DNA of 5,344 nt from a virus (taxonomy: Duplodnaviria; Heunggongvirae; Uroviricota; Caudoviricetes): positions 1 through 5,344 of the IMG/VR virus record IMGVR_UViG_2541047812_000002, one strand, 5' to 3'. Both the position numbers and the translations under genes were made by a program. The notes beneath the pieces were generated by a model. The model did not search any database and was not told where the DNA came from. It was given only the letters and a program-made list of their open reading frames with translations. Below are positions 1 to 5,344 of the stretch, in pieces (position 1 is the first letter of the stretch; every line of letters begins with the position of its first letter).

Positions 1-73
1 TTTAACCAGGGCGGGTATCGCTCGGTTTCGGGTATAACCTTAGGAAATTTTTTCCCACCTGTAAAGCACTTTT

Positions 74-105
74 TATATAAATCTATAATTATATATTTAT
101 AGATT
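74..105. repeat. Iteron cluster A: four tandem 8-bp AT-rich units (TATATAAA TCTATAAT TATATATT TATAGATT), related to the clusters flanking the par genes
   Basis: Read directly from sequence. 8-bp periodicity with units starting TATA/TCTA. Contains TTATATAAATCTATA (74-88), the exact reverse complement of TATAGATTTATATAA found in clusters B and D. Outer arms AAATCTATAA / TTATAGATTT form a 10-bp inverted repeat. Confidence 0.6.
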
Positions 106-156
106 TTCGATGTTCCCGATATCTACACACCATCAAAACAGCTCAAAATGACACTT

Positions 157-534
157 TTACTCTCTTCGCTTTTTCAAATAGTCGACAACATACGCCCTGG
201 CTTTTGCCAGCTTCCGGCGATACTGTCTGAGACTAAGAGAAAGGGCGTGGGCTTTATCAATATGCGGTGCATTTATGTCGAGGCCCCGAATCTCCCACGC
301 CCCGTATTCAATTCGGACAACCAGCGCCGCAGTCTCATCAACTACCGTGAGGGCCGTCACCGCTCCCTCGATACTGGTTTCCAGTGAGTCATTTGGTGCG
401 CCGCCCCCTCCGGTAAACTGGCAGCGCGTAACCATCATCATTTCTAACATCGACGCGAAACCGCTACGGGCGTTGCAGCCATTGCGCACCCACAGCGCCC
501 ATAGCTCAAACAAGCTATCCAGATCGCGTCTCAC
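157..534 (-). CDS. Putative phage antitermination protein Q-like (short QuuD-type family)
   Basis: 125-aa ORF, last gene of the coupled minus-strand operon (3-nt gap to the upstream gene). N-terminal LFELWALWVRNG motif and helix-rich C-terminus (LSLSLRQYRRKLAKARAYVVDYL) resemble my recollection of the Phage_antitermQ family. Position at the distal end of a cro-led operon fits. Assigned from memory, not a search. Confidence 0.4.
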   Translation of the reverse strand: MRRDLDSLFELWALWVRNGCNARSGFASMLEMMMVTRCQFTGGGGAPNDSLETSIEGAVTALTVVDETAALVVRIEYGAWEIRGLDINAPHIDKAHALSLSLRQYRRKLAKARAYVVDYLKKRRE

Positions 535-537
535 TGT

Positions 538-870
538 TCAGATCTCCCGTATCGTGACGGGATAAAGCGCCTCTACCTGCTTTTTCTTCATGATGTAGAC
601 GTCTGTTCGCACACCTTTAGTGTCGACACAATCAATCGTCCCATCGTCATAAAACACCATGAAATCAAGTTTATAAACGACACCACCTGGCAGATGAAAA
701 GGCACCTGCATAAGAAACGTCACAACGCGGCCAGCTTTTCTCAGTAGCTTCAGTTCGCAGTAGTAATCAGCCTCTTTTTTGCTATCAAAAGAGATATCAT
801 CGACAACAGTTTTTTTATTGCCGTATTTGCTTTTCCTGGTCGCTGGTTTGCGAAAGCCGGTATATCTCAT
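538..870 (-). CDS. DUF1064-family phage protein (putative nuclease/resolvase-like)
   Basis: 110-aa translation contains KYGNKKTVVDDISFDSKKEADYYCELKLLRKAG ... YKLDFMVFYDDGTIDCVDTKGVRTDVYIMKKK ... IREI, matching the conserved pattern I recall for DUF1064 proteins (KYGNKKT..DG..FDSKKEA..Y.EL.LL.KAG ... DF.Y ... DVKG..T..Y..KKK). Start overlaps the upstream gene stop by 4 nt (ATGA). Confidence 0.65.
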   Translation of the reverse strand: MRYTGFRKPATRKSKYGNKKTVVDDISFDSKKEADYYCELKLLRKAGRVVTFLMQVPFHLPGGVVYKLDFMVFYDDGTIDCVDTKGVRTDVYIMKKKQVEALYPVTIREI

Positions 871-1271
871 TTGGTATCCCCTGGTACTTCACCAAGACTA
901 AGATCAAACCCAATTTCGTCTTTAACTGACTGCGGCAACAGCTCCCACGTCTGCGCACACAAAAATTCATCGGTGCCATAACGCTCAACAAAGCGAGCAC
1001 AATTACTCAGGGGAGGGTGACGAACGGCAATATGCGGAGGCACGCGCCCACCACCAGGCACAACACCGCGATGATGTGGTGCGCACAACCCAAAGCTATG
1101 GAAGTGGCAATTCTCATCAACGCTGCCGTAATCAGGATCGTGATGTAGCTCCGTCCACAGCTCTGGATTCTCAATTTCACGGCCATCAATAATGCAAGCT
1201 ATGCAACCCACGTGAGTGAGCACCGCTTGTATATAAAGTTTCTCTTTCTTCGTTGGTGTACGTCCGTTCAT
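867..1271 (-). CDS. Cys/His-rich hypothetical protein, possible Zn-binding phage nuclease-like protein
   Basis: 134-aa ORF in the coupled operon. Contains CIAC, HHD, CHFHSFGLC and HH clusters suggestive of metal binding. AAGGGG Shine-Dalgarno about 5 nt upstream of the ATG. Family not confidently recognised. Confidence 0.5.
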   Translation of the reverse strand: MNGRTPTKKEKLYIQAVLTHVGCIACIIDGREIENPELWTELHHDPDYGSVDENCHFHSFGLCAPHHRGVVPGGGRVPPHIAVRHPPLSNCARFVERYGTDEFLCAQTWELLPQSVKDEIGFDLSLGEVPGDTK

Positions 1272-1504
1272 CAGCGCCCCTTACCATTGATAAAGAGGTT
1301 GAACTCGTTGATTAACTGGACATACATGCTTCTGGCCGCGTAGTTCTTTGCCAGCTCTTTACGGGATGAGATCCCGCAAAACTCACGCAGAATCACAGAG
1401 GCCTCAGAACTGTTTGAAACGTTCTTCCCTGTTTTACTGGTCAGAAAGCGCCAGAATTGGGGATTCTGGCAATGCATCGCAGCACCGCGAACATAACTAC
1501 TCAT
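1271..1504 (-). CDS. Hypothetical small protein (77 aa)
   Basis: ORF in the coupled operon: its start overlaps the upstream stop (ATGA) and its stop shares one nucleotide with the downstream start (TGATG). No recognisable motif. Confidence 0.4.
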   Translation of the reverse strand: MSSYVRGAAMHCQNPQFWRFLTSKTGKNVSNSSEASVILREFCGISSRKELAKNYAARSMYVQLINEFNLFINGKGR

Positions 1505-2016
1505 TGATGGCCCCCGTCATTTCTGGTGCTTTTCACCGTGCGGCTTCTTAAAAACCTGCCATCACGAACAACAGACACTTCTCGTTTACCCAACCTCATT
1601 TCACGGCGGTAACATTCAGAAAATGCCTCGTCCGGCATCATATAAATGCGACGCTTCGCCTCCGTATCCAGAAGGGAACGGCTTGGGGTTACATATAAAA
1701 ACGACTCATCAATAGGGACAAAACCACGAGCAAGAATTGCTGGCAGAATGCCAGGAAGAACGCAGAAAACAGCTCCACGATGCAGCAACATCAGGTACTC
1801 CATGACCTCCGTTATCCCCGTGACTACTGTTACGGTGTCACGTCTGTTACGGCTGGCAACCAGTCGCTGCACACGTCCAATTTTCTGATCTACAGATAGA
1901 TGTTTGCTATCGTTATCAATATGATCGATAGCAAATCCTTTAATCGTTTGATCAAGGTAGTGCACCACCTTCGATTGAATCTGGTGATTATCACCAAAGA
2001 AGGCCAGAATCATCAT
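1501..2016 (-). CDS. Hypothetical protein (171 aa), second gene of the early operon
   Basis: Long ORF whose ATG overlaps the stop of the cro-like gene (ATGATGA). GGGAGG and GAGGA Shine-Dalgarno candidates upstream. No family recognised from the sequence alone. Confidence 0.55.
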   Translation of the reverse strand: MMILAFFGDNHQIQSKVVHYLDQTIKGFAIDHIDNDSKHLSVDQKIGRVQRLVASRNRRDTVTVVTGITEVMEYLMLLHRGAVFCVLPGILPAILARGFVPIDESFLYVTPSRSLLDTEAKRRIYMMPDEAFSECYRREMRLGKREVSVVRDGRFLRSRTVKSTRNDGGHQ

Positions 2017-2507
2017 TCCTCAAGCCTCCCAAGTGCTGAACGCCGGGCGTTGCTAATCTCCTTATGAATCAGCTCGATATCGCTGGAATCTTTATTCTTA
2101 AGCTCCAGCACGGTAATCGCATCACGAACCTCTGAAACGGTTACGTGTGAGTGTTTCCAGCGAGCAATGAATCGCGGACCGCGTAGATTGCAACGCTCCG
2201 CAGGCATCCCCAACTCAGAGAAAACCGCTTTCAGCCTTGATAAGCAGTTAACAGGGAGATTCCCTTTGATCTTGTTCTGCCGAACCGATGTGCCATCGCT
2301 ACGCTGGCGCTGACGTTCGGCAAAATCTGCCGCCCATTGCTGGACGTTAATCCGGCCTTCCGAATACGCCACCAGCAGCGTCAGGTTATCCGCACGAGGG
2401 AATCTCTCGAAGCGATACCAGGCACCAATCAGTGATGACGTAAAGCCAAACTTTCTGGCAACACCAATTTGGCCTCCATTTTCGTCAACCCACTCCTGAA
2501 AGGTCAT
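2013..2507 (-). CDS. Cro/CII-like HTH DNA-binding protein with about 100-aa C-terminal extension
   Basis: 164-aa ORF transcribed divergently from the repressor gene. N-terminus (QIGVARKFGFTSSLIGAWYRF) has the pattern of Cro/YdaS-type HTH proteins. GGAG Shine-Dalgarno 8 nt upstream of the ATG. Promoter and operators lie immediately upstream. Confidence 0.55.
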   Translation of the reverse strand: MTFQEWVDENGGQIGVARKFGFTSSLIGAWYRFERFPRADNLTLLVAYSEGRINVQQWAADFAERQRQRSDGTSVRQNKIKGNLPVNCLSRLKAVFSELGMPAERCNLRGPRFIARWKHSHVTVSEVRDAITVLELKNKDSSDIELIHKEISNARRSALGRLEE

Positions 2508-2526
2508 TTAACGAACTCCAGTTAAA

Positions 2527-2541
2527 ACCACGATATGTGGT
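2527..2541. promoter_or_regulatory. Operator-like palindrome O1 (ACCAC-GATAT-GTGGT)
   Basis: Perfect 5-bp inverted arms ACCAC/GTGGT with a 5-bp spacer. Lies just downstream of the -10 of the putative cro-like promoter, on the minus strand. Confidence 0.5.
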
Positions 2542-2570
2542 ATTAAAACCACATATCGTGAGTTTTTCAA
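2542..2570 (-). promoter_or_regulatory. Putative sigma70 promoter of the cro-like/early operon
   Basis: On the minus strand: -35 TTGAAA (2565-2570), 17-bp spacer, -10 TTTAAT (2542-2547). A T10 tract (A10 on the plus strand, 2576-2585) lies just upstream and could act as a UP element. Operator O2 fills the spacer. Confidence 0.45.
2548..2562. promoter_or_regulatory. Operator-like palindrome O2 (ACCAC-ATATC-GTGAG)
   Basis: Same ACCAC-N5-GTG(G) architecture as O1, with one imperfect arm. Its core is the reverse complement of the O1 core. Occupies 15 of the 17 spacer positions between the -35 and -10 of the putative cro-like promoter. Confidence 0.5.
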
Positions 2571-2628
2571 TGGGCAAAAAAAAAATAACCTTCTATTTGT
2601 GGTCCACCTCTCGTCTTACCATGTGAAA

Positions 2629-2643
2629 ACCACTAAATGTGGT
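2629..2643. promoter_or_regulatory. Operator-like palindrome O3 (ACCAC-TAAAT-GTGGT)
   Basis: Third copy of ACCAC-N5-GTGGT. Sits 5 bp upstream of a TATAAA -10-like hexamer (2648-2653, with TG at 2646-2647) about 28 bp ahead of the repressor ATG. Confidence 0.45.
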
Positions 2644-2680
2644 AATGTATAAATAACCCACCATTCACGATTGATGAGAC

Positions 2681-3337
2681 ATGAAAAGCAACGACGAGAA
2701 CATCAAGAAAGAAATAGGTCTGCGCATTCAGACTCTACGGAAACAATCCGGCATGACTGCCGGAGATCTCCAGCAAGTCACTGGAATAGGCTTAAGCACC
2801 TTGCAGAACTATGAGGCCGGATTAAGACAACCATCTATACCTGCCATCAAGAAAATCGCGCACGCCCTGAAAGCATCAGCGCCTTATATCGCGTGCTTAA
2901 CAGATAACCCGTTCCCACCCCAGAATACTAACGCTCCTGTTATTCCTGGGCTTGTAGCTATAAAAAATGACATAGCATCGCACGCCGGAGAAAAGCCAGT
3001 GCTGGCGATAGAACAGGAGATTCTACGAAGCAAGAACATCAACCCATCGTCTCTGTCAGTTCTCCAGAGCAACGATGAGTTAATGTCACCAACAATATCC
3101 CCTGGCTCCCAAGTCCTGATTGATACAGACGATACAGAGATTCATGAGGGGATCTATGCCCTTGAAGACAGAAATGGCCTGGTTGTTTTGAGGCACTGTA
3201 GAGTCATACCGGGTGACAATGCTGTTATGCTGTCAACCGAAAGGGATGCTGAAATGAACACTAAGCATCTGAATAACGAGGAATTTAAGCGTTATAAAGT
3301 TCTGGGCCGCGTAGTTAGTGTTGTCAACTGGTTATGA
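2681..3337 (+). CDS. CI-like transcriptional repressor: N-terminal XRE-type HTH plus C-terminal S24 (LexA/CI)-like domain, apparently catalytically degenerate
   Basis: 218-aa ORF. Residues about 11-70 have the classic XRE HTH pattern (GMTAGDLQQVTGIGLSTLQNYEAGLRQPSIPAIKKIAHAL). The C-terminal 90 aa align to the S24 fold (LMSPTISPGSQVLIDTD ... YKVLGRVVSV), but the GDSM serine position reads DELM and the conserved lysine position is R/H. Confidence 0.7.
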   Translation: MKSNDENIKKEIGLRIQTLRKQSGMTAGDLQQVTGIGLSTLQNYEAGLRQPSIPAIKKIAHALKASAPYIACLTDNPFPPQNTNAPVIPGLVAIKNDIASHAGEKPVLAIEQEILRSKNINPSSLSVLQSNDELMSPTISPGSQVLIDTDDTEIHEGIYALEDRNGLVVLRHCRVIPGDNAVMLSTERDAEMNTKHLNNEEFKRYKVLGRVVSVVNWL

Positions 3338-3379
3338 TACACAGCACGGCGAAAGCCGTGCATTTCTACGCTCAAAAAA

Positions 3380-3394
3380 ACCACATTTTGTGGT
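3380..3394. promoter_or_regulatory. Operator-like palindrome O4 (ACCAC-ATTTT-GTGGT)
   Basis: Fourth copy of the motif, within the longer palindrome AAAACCACATTTTGTGGTTTT, between the repressor stop and the next gene. A TTGACA hexamer follows at 3395-3400, and AGAGG (3419-3423) precedes the ATG at 3430. Confidence 0.45.
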
Positions 3395-3429
3395 TTTGAC
3401 AACATGTGAAAGTATAAAAGAGGCTACGC

Positions 3430-3804
3430 ATGGAATTACATACAGCCAATAAAAACGAAACTCTGATCACTGCTGGAATCGAAATCCAAGCGTTGAACAT
3501 AGCGATTGAGTGTATGTTATGCCAAATCATTGATAATGAGAAAGATATCGACTGGATATCATCTACCCTTCATCTTGCTTACGAGCAAAAAGCCTGCCTC
3601 AAAACAGCCTTACAATACGATGTGCCTTCTGTATCAAAGCTGTGCCAGTCATTGATGGCATATAACAGAGCTATCATTTCTGTATGCCTCATGATTCTCG
3701 ATGAGAATACCCCTCTTAGCGACCGCTCAGAAGCAGCTCTAACCCTCTCACGTAAACAGCGACAGCTAGCAAATCAACTGATATCAACGATAGCTGACCT
3801 CTGA
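3430..3804 (+). CDS. Hypothetical protein (124 aa) downstream of the repressor gene
   Basis: ORF with a good Shine-Dalgarno (AAGAGG, 6-nt spacing) and a stem-loop terminator immediately after its stop. Predicted mostly helical. No family recognised. Confidence 0.5.
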   Translation: MELHTANKNETLITAGIEIQALNIAIECMLCQIIDNEKDIDWISSTLHLAYEQKACLKTALQYDVPSVSKLCQSLMAYNRAIISVCLMILDENTPLSDRSEAALTLSRKQRQLANQLISTIADL

Positions 3805-3808
3805 CTGC

Positions 3809-3828
3809 AAGCGGGCTAACGCCCGCTT
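3809..3828 (+). terminator. Putative intrinsic terminator (stem AAGCGGGC / GCCCGCTT, loop TAAC)
   Basis: Perfect 8-bp GC-rich stem with a 4-nt loop starting 5 nt after the stop at 3804. Followed by AT-rich sequence, though not a clean T-run. Confidence 0.45.
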
Positions 3829-3859
3829 ATATGATTATAGATTTATATAATTATATAAA
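3828..3859. repeat. Iteron cluster B: four tandem 8-bp units (TATATGAT TATAGATT TATATAAT TATATAAA)
   Basis: Read directly from sequence. The 23-mer TATAGATTTATATAATTATATAA (3836-3858) recurs with one mismatch in cluster C. Confidence 0.6.
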
Positions 3860-3881
3860 ACGCTTTTCATCCGCCAAAAAG

Positions 3882-3910
3882 TTGGTTATGCTTACCTCGT
3901 TCTATAAATA
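3882..3910 (+). promoter_or_regulatory. Putative par operon promoter overlapping iteron cluster C
   Basis: -35-like TTGGTT (3882-3887) and a -10-like TATAAA/TAAATA within 3903-3910 at 15-17 bp spacing, between iteron clusters B and C, about 45 bp upstream of the parA-like start. Weak consensus match; inference only. Confidence 0.3.
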
Positions 3911-3932
3911 TAGATTTATAGAATTATATAAC
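3901..3932. repeat. Iteron cluster C: tandem 8-bp units (TCTATAAA TATAGATT TATAGAAT TATATAAC)
   Basis: Read directly from sequence. 3909-3931 (TATAGATTTATAGAATTATATAA) differs from the cluster B 23-mer at one position. Ends 23 bp before the parA-like start. Confidence 0.6.
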
Positions 3933-3954
3933 CAAACACATGGAGTCTCGACAA

Positions 3955-4608
3955 ATGACTATCTCTGTAGGTATTTTCAACGGAAAAGGCGGCGTAACCA
4001 AATCAACAATTGCCCGTGCTTTAGCAGTTGCTTATGCAAAGGCTGGCTGGAATGTATGCCTGATCGATATGGATGTGCTTAACGGAACGGTAACGCGTTG
4101 GGTACAACGCAGAATGGCCAACAATATCGAACCAGCAATCGCGGCGCAGCCGTGCGGCACACCATCACAAGTCCAGAAAATCATCGAATCAGAAGTATAC
4201 GACCTGGTTATCGTCGATGGCGGTGCCTACGCATCTGAATCAGTACCGAAGCTCTCTGAATTTCTGGATATGGTTATTTTGCCAACCAGATTCTCTACCG
4301 ATGACCTGGAAACCACCGTTAACACAGCTCACGGCATCGTTAAAAAGGGTGTACCAATCAAGAAAATTTGCATGGTGTTTTCCGGCGCGGCTGAAAACGA
4401 AGCTGACTATATTGAAGCCCAAGAGTACCTGGCTAATACGCCATACTTTGTTGTCGATAAGTACATTCCCCACAAGCCAGCTCTGAGCAAAGCTCAGGAT
4501 AAGGGCTTAAGCCTTATTGAGTGCTCATACGTTGCGCCACGCAAAAAGGCAGACGATGTTATCCAGGGGATTATCAATCAGCTTGAGGCTCTGACTACTG
4601 CCGCGTAA
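3955..4608 (+). CDS. parA: ParA/ParF-family partition ATPase (small, type Ib; deviant Walker A)
   Basis: N-terminus MTISVGIFNGKGGVTKSTIARALAVAYAKAGWNVCLIDMD carries the deviant Walker A motif KGGxxK[ST] typical of ParA/MinD ATPases. About 217 aa, the size of ParF-type proteins. I prefer the ATG at 3955 (GGAG 9 nt upstream) over the track's ATG at 3940, which has no Shine-Dalgarno. Confidence 0.85.
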   Translation: MTISVGIFNGKGGVTKSTIARALAVAYAKAGWNVCLIDMDVLNGTVTRWVQRRMANNIEPAIAAQPCGTPSQVQKIIESEVYDLVIVDGGAYASESVPKLSEFLDMVILPTRFSTDDLETTVNTAHGIVKKGVPIKKICMVFSGAAENEADYIEAQEYLANTPYFVVDKYIPHKPALSKAQDKGLSLIECSYVAPRKKADDVIQGIINQLEALTTAA

Positions 4609-4640
4609 TATATAATTATAGTTTTATAGATTTATATAAA
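4609..4640. repeat. Iteron cluster D: four tandem 8-bp units (TATATAAT TATAGTTT TATAGATT TATATAAA) filling the parA-parG spacer
   Basis: Read directly from sequence. Begins immediately after the parA-like stop (4606-4608) and ends 11 bp before the parG-like ATG. Shares TATAGATTTATATAA with cluster B. Confidence 0.6.
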
Positions 4641-4651
4641 AGGGGATACAC

Positions 4652-4900
4652 ATGGCCGCACCATCAAAACCACCGAAAAAGAACAGCAAAGGCGTACCGC
4701 CATCAATCGAACAACCGCAGGTTTTCGACCCGACTGAAACGCCGACCAGAACCAAATCAGGTGGGGCACAAATGGCGTTTAACGTCGACCCTGAATTTAA
4801 ACGCGAGTACAAAACGTTCGCCAGCTCAATGGATATGTCATTGAAAGAAGTGCTGACAAAATCTTTTGAGTTACTCAAGGCTCAATACAACCAGAAGTAA
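4652..4900 (+). CDS. ParG-like ribbon-helix-helix centromere-binding protein (82 aa)
   Basis: Immediately downstream of the ParA-like gene, with an AAGGGG Shine-Dalgarno. C-terminal 40 aa (MAFNVDPEFKREYKTFASSMDMSLKEVLTKSFELLKAQY) fits a beta-strand/helix/helix RHH pattern similar to TP228 ParG as I recall it. N-terminal 40 aa is a Pro/Lys-rich, probably disordered tail. Confidence 0.6.
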   Translation: MAAPSKPPKKNSKGVPPSIEQPQVFDPTETPTRTKSGGAQMAFNVDPEFKREYKTFASSMDMSLKEVLTKSFELLKAQYNQK

Positions 4901-4962
4901 GAGAAGGTGACGGCCTCCAGCGCCAACTGTTGGCCGTCGCGACACAACAAGGGGAATTTGTT

Positions 4963-5112
4963 ATGTCCGAGCAACAATATACACGGTTACTGAAAACTCG
5001 TCTAACCGACCTCAAACGGCTGCAAGCTGGTTGCTTATTTGCCCTGCTATCTACCAGGCCAGAATGGGTACGTGAAGCAGTTCTGAAAGGTTTAATGCGC
5101 TCCAGCGTTTAA
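4963..5112 (+). CDS. Hypothetical small protein (49 aa from the ATG at 4963; the track ORF starts at 4930)
   Basis: AAGGGGA Shine-Dalgarno 7 nt upstream of the ATG at 4963. Stop codon TAA (5110-5112) lies 9 bp before the IS terminal repeat. No motif recognised. Confidence 0.3.
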   Translation: MSEQQYTRLLKTRLTDLKRLQAGCLFALLSTRPEWVREAVLKGLMRSSV

Positions 5113-5120
5113 ATTCAACC

Positions 5121-5344
5121 GGCTTTGTTGAATAAATCGAACTTTTGCTGAGTTGAAGGATCAGATCACGCATCCTCCCGACAACACAGACCATTCCGTG
5201 GCAAAGCAAAAGTTCAGAATCACCAACTGGTCCACCTACAACAAAGCTCTCATCAACCGTGGCTCCCTCACTTTCTGGCTGGATGATGAAGCGATTCAGG
5301 CCTGGTATGAGTCGGCAACGCCTTCATCACGAGGAAGGCCCCAG
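5121..5344 (+). mobile_element. IS903-group insertion sequence (IS5 family), left end; partial, continues past the window
   Basis: 5121-5138 GGCTTTGTTGAATAAATC matches the 18-bp terminal inverted repeat of IS903 as I recall it. The following 200 bp match the known IS903 left end with a few substitutions. Confidence 0.85.
5198..5344 (+). CDS. tnp: IS903-family (IS5 family) transposase, N-terminal 49 codons (partial; GTG start; runs off the window)
   Basis: Translation from GTG 5198: VAKQKFRITNWSTYNKALINRGSLTFWLDDEAIQAWYESATPSSRGRPQ, near-identical to the IS903 transposase N-terminus as I remember it (MAKQKFKITNWSTYNKALINRGSLTFWLDDEAIQAWYESATPSSRGRPQ). Absent from the ORF track because it lacks an ATG and is truncated by the window edge. 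Confidence 0.8.
   Translation, partial: MAKQKFRITNWSTYNKALINRGSLTFWLDDEAIQAWYESATPSSRGRPQ

What the first reader, a model, noticed from the sequence alone, without database searches (positions are those of the whole stretch)
4963..5344. IS903-group insertion immediately downstream of the partition module
The 18-bp terminal repeat begins at 5121, 9 bp after the stop of a small ORF. IS903 makes 9-bp target duplications, so AATTCAACC (5112-5120) is the candidate duplicated target. The insertion may have cut off whatever followed the par operon and marks this backbone as an IS target. The copy differs from canonical IS903 at several positions in the first 200 bp, so it is probably an isoform.
Basis: partly seen in the sequence, partly recalled or inferred. 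Interest (0 to 1): 0.35.

Follow-up and report, generated by a model that had tools for sequence, protein, structure and literature searches.

The report
IS102-type insertion sequence after par genes
The last 224 bases of the window are the end of a common jumping gene (an IS903-group, IS102-type insertion sequence) that landed between two genes of a ~48-kb E. coli phage-plasmid; this is real but ordinary.

Summary
The 18-bp IS903-group terminal repeat GGCTTTGTTGAATAAATC occurs once in the window, at 5121-5138. Window 1-5120 is 100% identical to the IS-free E. coli plasmid pP136-7. All 11 IS-free relatives read ...TTTAAATTCAACC|ATAAAAAAGGCCCC..., so similarity breaks exactly at 5120|5121.

The 224 visible IS bases are 100% identical to many E. 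coli copies of a 1056-bp isoform. They are 99.1% identical to IS102 of pSC101 and only 92-95% identical to IS903 copies. The element is therefore IS102-type, not IS903 proper.

The proposed duplication AATTCAACC is plausible:
- The isoform carries 9-bp duplications in 4 of 7 independent contexts.
- The site scores 7/10 against the published IS903 target motif.

It cannot be tested, because the window ends inside the IS and no collection holds either junction.

In relatives the insertion point lies 2 bp before the 3' end of a convergent ryfA/timP-type toxin RNA. An isrK-C4-antirepressor immunity module follows that. A simple insertion would cut no gene, although it separates the par genes from the only hairpin downstream of them. 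An IS-mediated deletion or a composite transposon cannot be excluded.

Verdict: a known element doing a known thing. Interest is low.

The parts
5121..5138 (+). 18-bp terminal inverted repeat of an IS903-group element, at the transposase-proximal end
   Evidence: It is the only match in the window, with 0.01 expected by chance. It is identical to the ends of IS102 (pSC101) and of IS903 in P7 and HK022. Backbone similarity ends at 5120.
5121..5344 (+). First 224 bp of the IS, cut off by the end of the window. It is IS102-type.
   Evidence: It is 100% identical to many E. coli chromosomal and plasmid copies. These copies are 1056 bp long. Identity is 99.1% to IS102, 94.6% to the Tn903 IS903, and 92.9% and 92.4% to the P7 and HK022 IS903.
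5198..5344 (+). First 49 codons of the DDE transposase, with a GTG start. RefSeq also annotates a longer form from TTG at 5153.
   Evidence: The start is placed by correspondence with the P7, HK022 and L018 annotations and with the longer form in L002. The fragment hits PF13737 DDE_Tnp_1_5 at 27.6 bits and NF033579 transpos_IS5_2 at 38.8 bits, both below cut-off because it is truncated. The full 307-aa protein of an identical-start copy scores 132.8 and 354.5 bits.
5112..5120 (.). Candidate 9-bp target that would be duplicated at the unseen far end of the IS (AATTCAACC)
   Evidence: It lies directly next to the repeat. The isoform makes 9-bp duplications in 4 of 7 independent contexts. The site GTTTA|AATTCAACC|ATAAA scores 7/10 against the IS903 motif WTTYA-N9-TRAAW given in PMC2577343, and only 3.2% of backbone positions score that high. 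The duplication itself was not observed.
4963..5112 (+). Small 49-aa ORF, the last gene before the IS. It has no family match.
   Evidence: It is intact in all 11 relatives, with 10 synonymous-only and 4 amino-acid-changing variable codons. A GGGGA Shine-Dalgarno-like motif sits upstream. It has no Pfam or NCBIfam hit.
4652..4900 (+). 82-aa protein after parA, presumed to be the centromere-binding partner
   Evidence: The assignment rests on position and size only. It has no Pfam or NCBIfam hit. The gene is extremely widespread, listed in 11101 index blocks.
3955..4608 (+). ParA-type partition ATPase (217 aa)
   Evidence: It hits PF01656 CbiA at 48 bits. It hits NF041546 ParA_partition at 78.6 bits, below that model's cut-off. 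RefSeq annotates it as 'ParA family protein'.
5139..5215 (+). 11-nt perfect inverted repeat inside the IS (5139-5149 and 5205-5215). The second arm covers transposase codons 3-6.
   Evidence: The repeat was found. The stem appears in the minimum-energy RNA fold, but the z-score is only -1.45. Any function is an inference.

Best explanation
An IS903-group insertion sequence of the IS5 family, of the IS102 type, transposed into a ~48-kb E. coli phage-plasmid. It most likely belongs to the widespread 1056-bp isoform. It landed in the short spacer between the last small ORF after the parA genes and the 3' end of a convergent ryfA/timP-type RNA gene.

Mechanism, from established knowledge of IS903: the DDE transposase binds the 18-bp terminal repeats and makes cuts staggered by 9 bp in the target. 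Repair then duplicates the 9 bp, so the unseen far end should read ...CAACAAAGCC-AATTCAACC-ATAAAAAAGGCCCC.

What is shown: the identity of the element, the exact insertion point, and the empty site in relatives. What is inferred: that the element is complete, that it is a simple insertion with the duplication, and that the neighbouring genes are left intact. The transposase gene points away from the par genes and no terminator lies between them, so par transcripts probably read into the IS. That is also an inference.
For: - **Exact repeat at the break.** The terminal repeat sits exactly where backbone similarity ends.
- **Backbone identity.** Window 1-5120 is 100% identical to the IS-free plasmid pP136-7. 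All 11 relatives show the uninterrupted site.
- **Element identity.** The IS part is 100% identical to many complete copies and 99.1% identical to IS102.
- **Complete copies.** They are 1056 bp long with an intact 307-aa IS5-family transposase.
- **Duplications.** Perfect 9-bp duplications flank the isoform in 4 of 7 independent contexts.
- **Target motif.** The site scores 7/10 against the published IS903 target motif, in the top 3.2% of backbone positions.
- **Neutral site.** The point lies between convergent genes, next to a terminator hairpin.
Against: Only one end of the IS is visible, so completeness and the duplication are unverified. In 3 of 7 independent contexts the same isoform lacks a duplication or is truncated, so rearrangement is common for this element. 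Neither the real left junction nor the predicted right junction exists in any collection searched, so there is no independent copy of this event to inspect.
Confidence: 0.6

Rival explanations
1. The IS end is real, but it marks a rearrangement rather than a simple insertion. One possibility is an IS-mediated adjacent deletion that removed backbone to the right (ryfA/timP, isrK-C4-antirepressor). Others are a cointegrate, or the edge of a composite transposon bounded by two IS copies and carrying cargo such as a resistance gene.
For: In 3 of 7 independent contexts of this isoform the duplication is missing or the element is truncated. IS903-group elements bound composite transposons such as Tn903, Tn602 and the IS102-bounded aphA1 transposon, and IS903 makes adjacent deletions and cointegrates (PMC12670165). 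The region right of the par genes varies in length among relatives. A similar-looking family of ~47-54 kb E. coli phage-plasmids is reported to carry acquired resistance genes in some members (bioRxiv 10.64898/2026.08.19.745698).
Against: Nothing in the window points to cargo or deletion. These phage-plasmids fall in a narrow size range of 47-52 kb among the hits, which limits large additions. The 30 best relatives carry no IS903-group copy that could act as a recombination partner.
Confidence: 0.3
2. The element is a remnant: a solo end or a truncated, dead IS fragment rather than a complete IS.
For: Only 224 bp are visible. One of 7 contexts sampled (L019) lacks a right end at the expected distance.
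Against: The visible part is 100% identical to active-looking complete copies, including the intact start of the transposase gene. Nothing suggests decay.
Confidence: 0.07
3. The join is an assembly artefact: a plasmid contig wrongly joined to, or ended in, a repeated IS that lies elsewhere in the genome.
For: The window stops inside a highly repeated element, which is typical of contigs from short-read assemblies. The junction is found in no other record.
Against: The join falls exactly at the first base of the terminal repeat, at a site that fits the IS903 target motif. That is the signature of transposition, not of a random misjoin.
Confidence: 0.03

Closest known systems
IS102 (pSC101; IS903 group, IS5 family)
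   Same: The 18-bp end is identical. There are 222/224 identical bases in the visible part, and the first 49 transposase residues are the same.
   Different: There are two mismatches, at 5290 and 5320. The copies that match the window perfectly are 1056 bp long and differ from IS102 by about 13% over their last ~350 bp, giving 94.9% identity overall and 97.4% at the protein level. The window does not reach the part that tells the two apart.
Unnamed 1056-bp IS102-like isoform common in E. coli (for example next to csgD in strain S30; transposase WP_000654811.1)
   Same: It is 100% identical over all 224 visible bases. It makes 9-bp duplications.
   Different: Nothing differs in the visible part. 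The far repeat of these copies matches at 17 of 18 positions. I could not check its ISfinder name.
IS903 (Tn903) and IS903 / IS903B-type copies in phages P7 and HK022
   Same: They share the terminal repeat, the layout, the 9-bp duplication and the transposase family.
   Different: They have 12-17 mismatches in 224 bp (92.4-94.6% identity). Whole-length identity to the matching isoform is about 88%.

Membership tests
IS903 group of the IS5 family | 18-bp terminal repeat GGCTTTGTTGAATAAATC at the very end of the element | tested here: met
   There is an exact match at 5121-5138. It coincides with the break in backbone similarity and with base 1 of the annotated IS903 in P7 and HK022.
IS903 group of the IS5 family | A second, inverted copy of the repeat about 1.05 kb away | not testable with these tools
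   The window ends 224 bp into the element. No collection holds the source sequence.
IS903 group of the IS5 family | A single DDE transposase of about 307 aa (IS5 family) | tested here: inconclusive
   Only 49 codons are visible. They match the N-terminus of PF13737 and NF033579 but fall below the cut-offs. Full-length copies with an identical start score 132.8 and 354.5 bits.
IS903 group of the IS5 family | 9-bp direct duplication of the target | not testable with these tools
   The far junction is unseen. The same isoform shows perfect 9-bp duplications in 4 of 7 independent contexts elsewhere.
IS102 (as a named isoform) | About 95% or more nucleotide identity to the reference. The threshold is recalled from ISfinder practice, not checked here. 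| tested here: inconclusive
   Identity is 99.1% over the visible 224 bp. The perfectly matching full copies are 94.9% identical to IS102 overall, so the name depends on the unseen 3' part.
IS903 sensu stricto / IS903B | About 95% or more nucleotide identity to the reference | tested here: not met
   Identity is 94.6% to the Tn903 copy, 92.9% to P7 and 92.4% to HK022 over 224 bp.

The most novel reading that the evidence does not exclude
The IS end is the edge of an IS102-type composite transposon, or of an IS-mediated deletion. Such an event would have added cargo (for example a resistance gene) to this family of transmissible ~48-kb E. coli phage-plasmids, or removed its ryfA/timP toxin and C4-antirepressor immunity region.
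Probability: 0.15. Interest if true: 0.3.

Novelty: already known. Interest (0 to 1): 0.08.

Why it matters
It matters little. It is one more insertion of a very common enterobacterial IS. The visible 224 bp are present in 1948 of 5426 complete E. coli genomes at some level of identity.

It has modest practical value:
- It dates this copy of the phage-plasmid as a derived variant of pP136-7-like elements.
- It explains why the sequence stops here, since it is probably a contig broken at a repeat.
- It flags that the gene content to the right should be checked in the full assembly. That content is a type I toxin RNA and the immunity/antirepressor module.

Tried and rejected
**Searches for the source sequence or a second copy of this insertion**
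- The exact 35-mer left junction was absent from viral, genome and metagenome contigs.
- The predicted right junction was absent from viral contigs.
- A looser right-junction pattern, an IS end within 0-12 bp of the terminator, was absent from genome and metagenome contigs.
- A synthetic right-junction query found nothing spanning it in 5426 complete E. coli genomes.
- No record in the plasmid, E. coli or phage collections spans the left junction.

**Lookup by the 82-aa protein**
- All 10 places returned are IS-free.

**Linking the backbone to the 'p-p47' phage-plasmid family of a 2026 preprint**
- The two accessions the preprint names are not in the collections, and it lists no others in the text. 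The link is likely but unverified.

**RNA hairpin inside the IS over the start of the transposase gene**
- It is predicted but not significant, with a z-score of -1.45.

**The six bases TCAACC next to the IS**
- They are shared with one other copy (L002), which briefly suggested a longer element end. This was rejected because other copies have unrelated flanks.

Full report
**What is in the sequence**

From 5121 to the end of the window (5344) the DNA is the end of an IS903-group insertion sequence. The 18-bp terminal repeat GGCTTTGTTGAATAAATC occurs once in the window, at 5121-5138. No other match exists even with 3 mismatches, and 0.01 are expected by chance. Position 5121 aligns with base 1 of the features annotated as IS903 in phages P7 and HK022, and with the end of IS102 in pSC101.

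By correspondence with those annotations, the transposase gene starts with GTG at 5198 on the + strand. RefSeq also annotates a longer form that corresponds to TTG at 5153. The gene runs off the window after 49 codons.

These codons match the N-terminus of the IS5-family transposase models, but fall below the cut-offs because the fragment is short. The full 307-aa protein from a copy with an identical start scores 132.8 bits (PF13737), 111.4 bits (PF01609) and 354.5 bits (NF033579).

**It is an insertion**

Window 1-5120 is 100% identical to the 48,077-bp E. coli plasmid pP136-7 (NZ_CP080230.1). It is 98-99% identical to about 60 other plasmids of 47-52 kb, mostly from E. coli and typed as non-mobilizable. 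It is 98.3% identical over 4600-5120 to three Yersinia phages of about 49 kb.

Alignments to the closest relatives stop at 5120; three of the 30 listed stop 3-6 bp earlier. In pP136-7 and ten further relatives the site is uninterrupted...GCGTTTAAATTCAACC|ATAAAAAAGGCCCCCGAAGGGGCC.... One of them, L007, has a variant spacer and a different hairpin. The break therefore falls exactly at the first base of the terminal repeat. That is the signature of transposition, not of a random misjoin.

**Which element**

| Reference | Mismatches in the 224 visible bases | Identity |
|---|---|---|
| Many E. coli chromosomal and plasmid copies | 0 | 100% |
| IS102 of pSC101 | 2 | 99.1% |
| IS903 of the Tn903 kanamycin cassette | 12 | 94.6% |
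| IS903 of phage P7 | 16 | 92.9% |
| IS903 of phage HK022 | 17 | 92.4% |

The perfectly matching copies that are complete are 1056 bp long.

The group is mosaic:
- The 1056-bp isoform equals IS102 over the first ~700 bp, with 2 differences.
- It differs from IS102 by about 13% over the last ~350 bp.
- IS102 itself is nearly identical to the P7 IS903 over those last ~350 bp.

The visible part is therefore IS102-type. Whether the whole element is IS102 or the 1056-bp isoform depends on sequence beyond the window, although the two differing bases favour the isoform.

**The proposed target duplication**

AATTCAACC is at 5112-5120 and overlaps the last base of the TAA stop at 5110-5112. IS903-group elements make 9-bp duplications (PMC2577343 and PMC12670165). 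I confirmed this for the matching isoform. Of 7 independent insertion contexts, 4 have perfect 9-bp duplications, 2 have unrelated flanks and 1 lacks the far end.

The site GTTTA|AATTCAACC|ATAAA matches the published target motif WTTYA-N9-TRAAW at 7 of 10 positions. Only 3.2% of positions in 11 kb of backbone score as high. This is modest support for the register.

The duplication itself cannot be seen, because the window ends inside the IS. Neither the real left junction nor the predicted right junction exists in any collection available. A lookup through the neighbouring 82-aa protein returned only IS-free places.

**What the IS sits next to**

To the left are three genes:
- A ParA-type ATPase at 3955-4608 (PF01656, 48 bits).
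- An 82-aa protein with no family match at 4652-4900. It is presumed to be the partner of ParA from position and size only.
- The 49-aa ORF at 4963-5112. It is intact in all 11 relatives, with 10 synonymous-only against 4 amino-acid-changing variable codons, so it is probably a real gene.

To the right, the IS-free relatives all carry the following:
- A ryfA RNA gene (Rfam RF00126, 137-145 bits) on the opposite strand. Its 3' end lies 2 bp beyond the insertion point in nine of the ten relatives scanned (it is about 175 bp further right in L007), and its terminator hairpin and T-run directly adjoin the insertion point.
- isrK and C4 antisense RNA matches.
- A 63-aa ORF and an ORF6N/pRha antirepressor-like gene.

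ryfA encodes the small toxin TimP of a type I toxin-antitoxin pair in Salmonella (PMC7667032). The plasmid copy contains a 40-aa ORF of that kind, by my own reading.

The IS therefore landed in a spacer of about 10 bp between convergent genes. A simple insertion with the duplication would leave both genes and the terminator intact. No terminator lies between the par genes and the IS, and the transposase gene has the same orientation. Read-through from the par genes into the IS is therefore likely, but that is an inference.

**What cannot be decided**

The window does not show whether the element is complete. It also does not show whether it is a simple insertion, or whether it caused a deletion or bounds a composite transposon. 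The sample above suggests rearranged contexts are common for this isoform (3 of 7). Against that, the narrow size range of these phage-plasmids limits large additions, and the absence of IS903-group copies in the 30 closest relatives removes an obvious recombination partner.

My estimates are:
- Simple insertion: about 0.6.
- Rearrangement or composite transposon: about 0.3.
- Truncated remnant: about 0.07.
- Assembly artefact: about 0.03.

The claim that this 'marks the backbone as an IS target' has no support. No relative examined has an IS at this site.

**Backbone**

The size, the host range and the close Yersinia phage relatives indicate a phage-plasmid. It resembles the 'p-p47' family of 47-54 kb E. 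coli phage-plasmids described in a 2026 preprint (bioRxiv 10.64898/2026.08.19.745698). I could not verify the link by accession.

**Verdict**

This is a real and correctly recognised feature of a well-known kind: an IS102-type, IS903-group element in a neutral intergenic site of a known phage-plasmid backbone. It is not novel, and interest is low.

Noticed in passing
L001 8123-8419 (-), 8791-8864 (+), 8889-8977 (+). This equals window-equivalent 5123 onward in IS-free relatives. The same features are in L003-L012.: All IS-free relatives carry a plasmid-borne ryfA RNA (timP-type type I toxin mRNA, with a 40-aa ORF MKKYCMCIFIVVTGALF...) convergent with the par genes. It is followed by isrK and C4 antisense RNA matches upstream of a 63-aa ORF and an ORF6N/pRha antirepressor-like gene. 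This arrangement resembles the immI region of phage P1 (that resemblance is from my own knowledge).
   Followed up: partly
window 3828-3941 and 4609-4649: AT-rich repeats of the type TATAGATTTATA(T/G)AATTATATAA lie upstream of parA and again between parA and the 82-aa gene. They are likely centromere or operator sites of the partition system.
   Followed up: no
window 4792-4804 and 5105-5117: A perfect 13-nt inverted repeat (TGAATTTAAACGC / GCGTTTAAATTCA) lies 300 nt apart. One arm is inside the 82-aa gene. The other spans the stop of the small ORF and overlaps the proposed target duplication. By a rough estimate of my own, about 0.03 such repeats would be expected by chance in 2 kb. Its meaning is unknown.
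   Followed up: no
L016 6916-7972 (IS102), L013 1201-2257 (P7 IS903), L017 1301-2356 (1056-bp isoform): IS903-group isoforms are block mosaics. IS102 and the 1056-bp isoform share the first ~700 bp, while IS102 and the P7 IS903 share the last ~350 bp. Naming an isoform from one end alone is therefore unsafe.
   Followed up: yes
L007 6460-6540; L003-L005 6250-8170: The stretch right after the small ORF is a mosaic boundary among relatives. L007 has a different spacer and terminator hairpin and about 175 bp of extra DNA before ryfA. L003-L005 have 650-800 bp of extra DNA, including an HTH gene, between ryfA and the C4 region.
   Followed up: partly
L008 (CP050217.1, a 6.65-Mb record), 5304-10800: The same parA, 82-aa gene, ryfA, isrK/C4 and antirepressor block sits in a different left-hand context there (PIN-domain, Hha and SNase genes, CopA-like RNA). 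The block therefore also travels outside the ~48-kb phage-plasmid backbone.
   Followed up: no
window 5139-5149 and 5205-5215: An 11-nt perfect inverted repeat inside the IS could pair the region just inside the terminal repeat with transposase codons 3-6. That might block translation of read-through transcripts. The predicted fold is not significant, with z = -1.45.
   Followed up: partly
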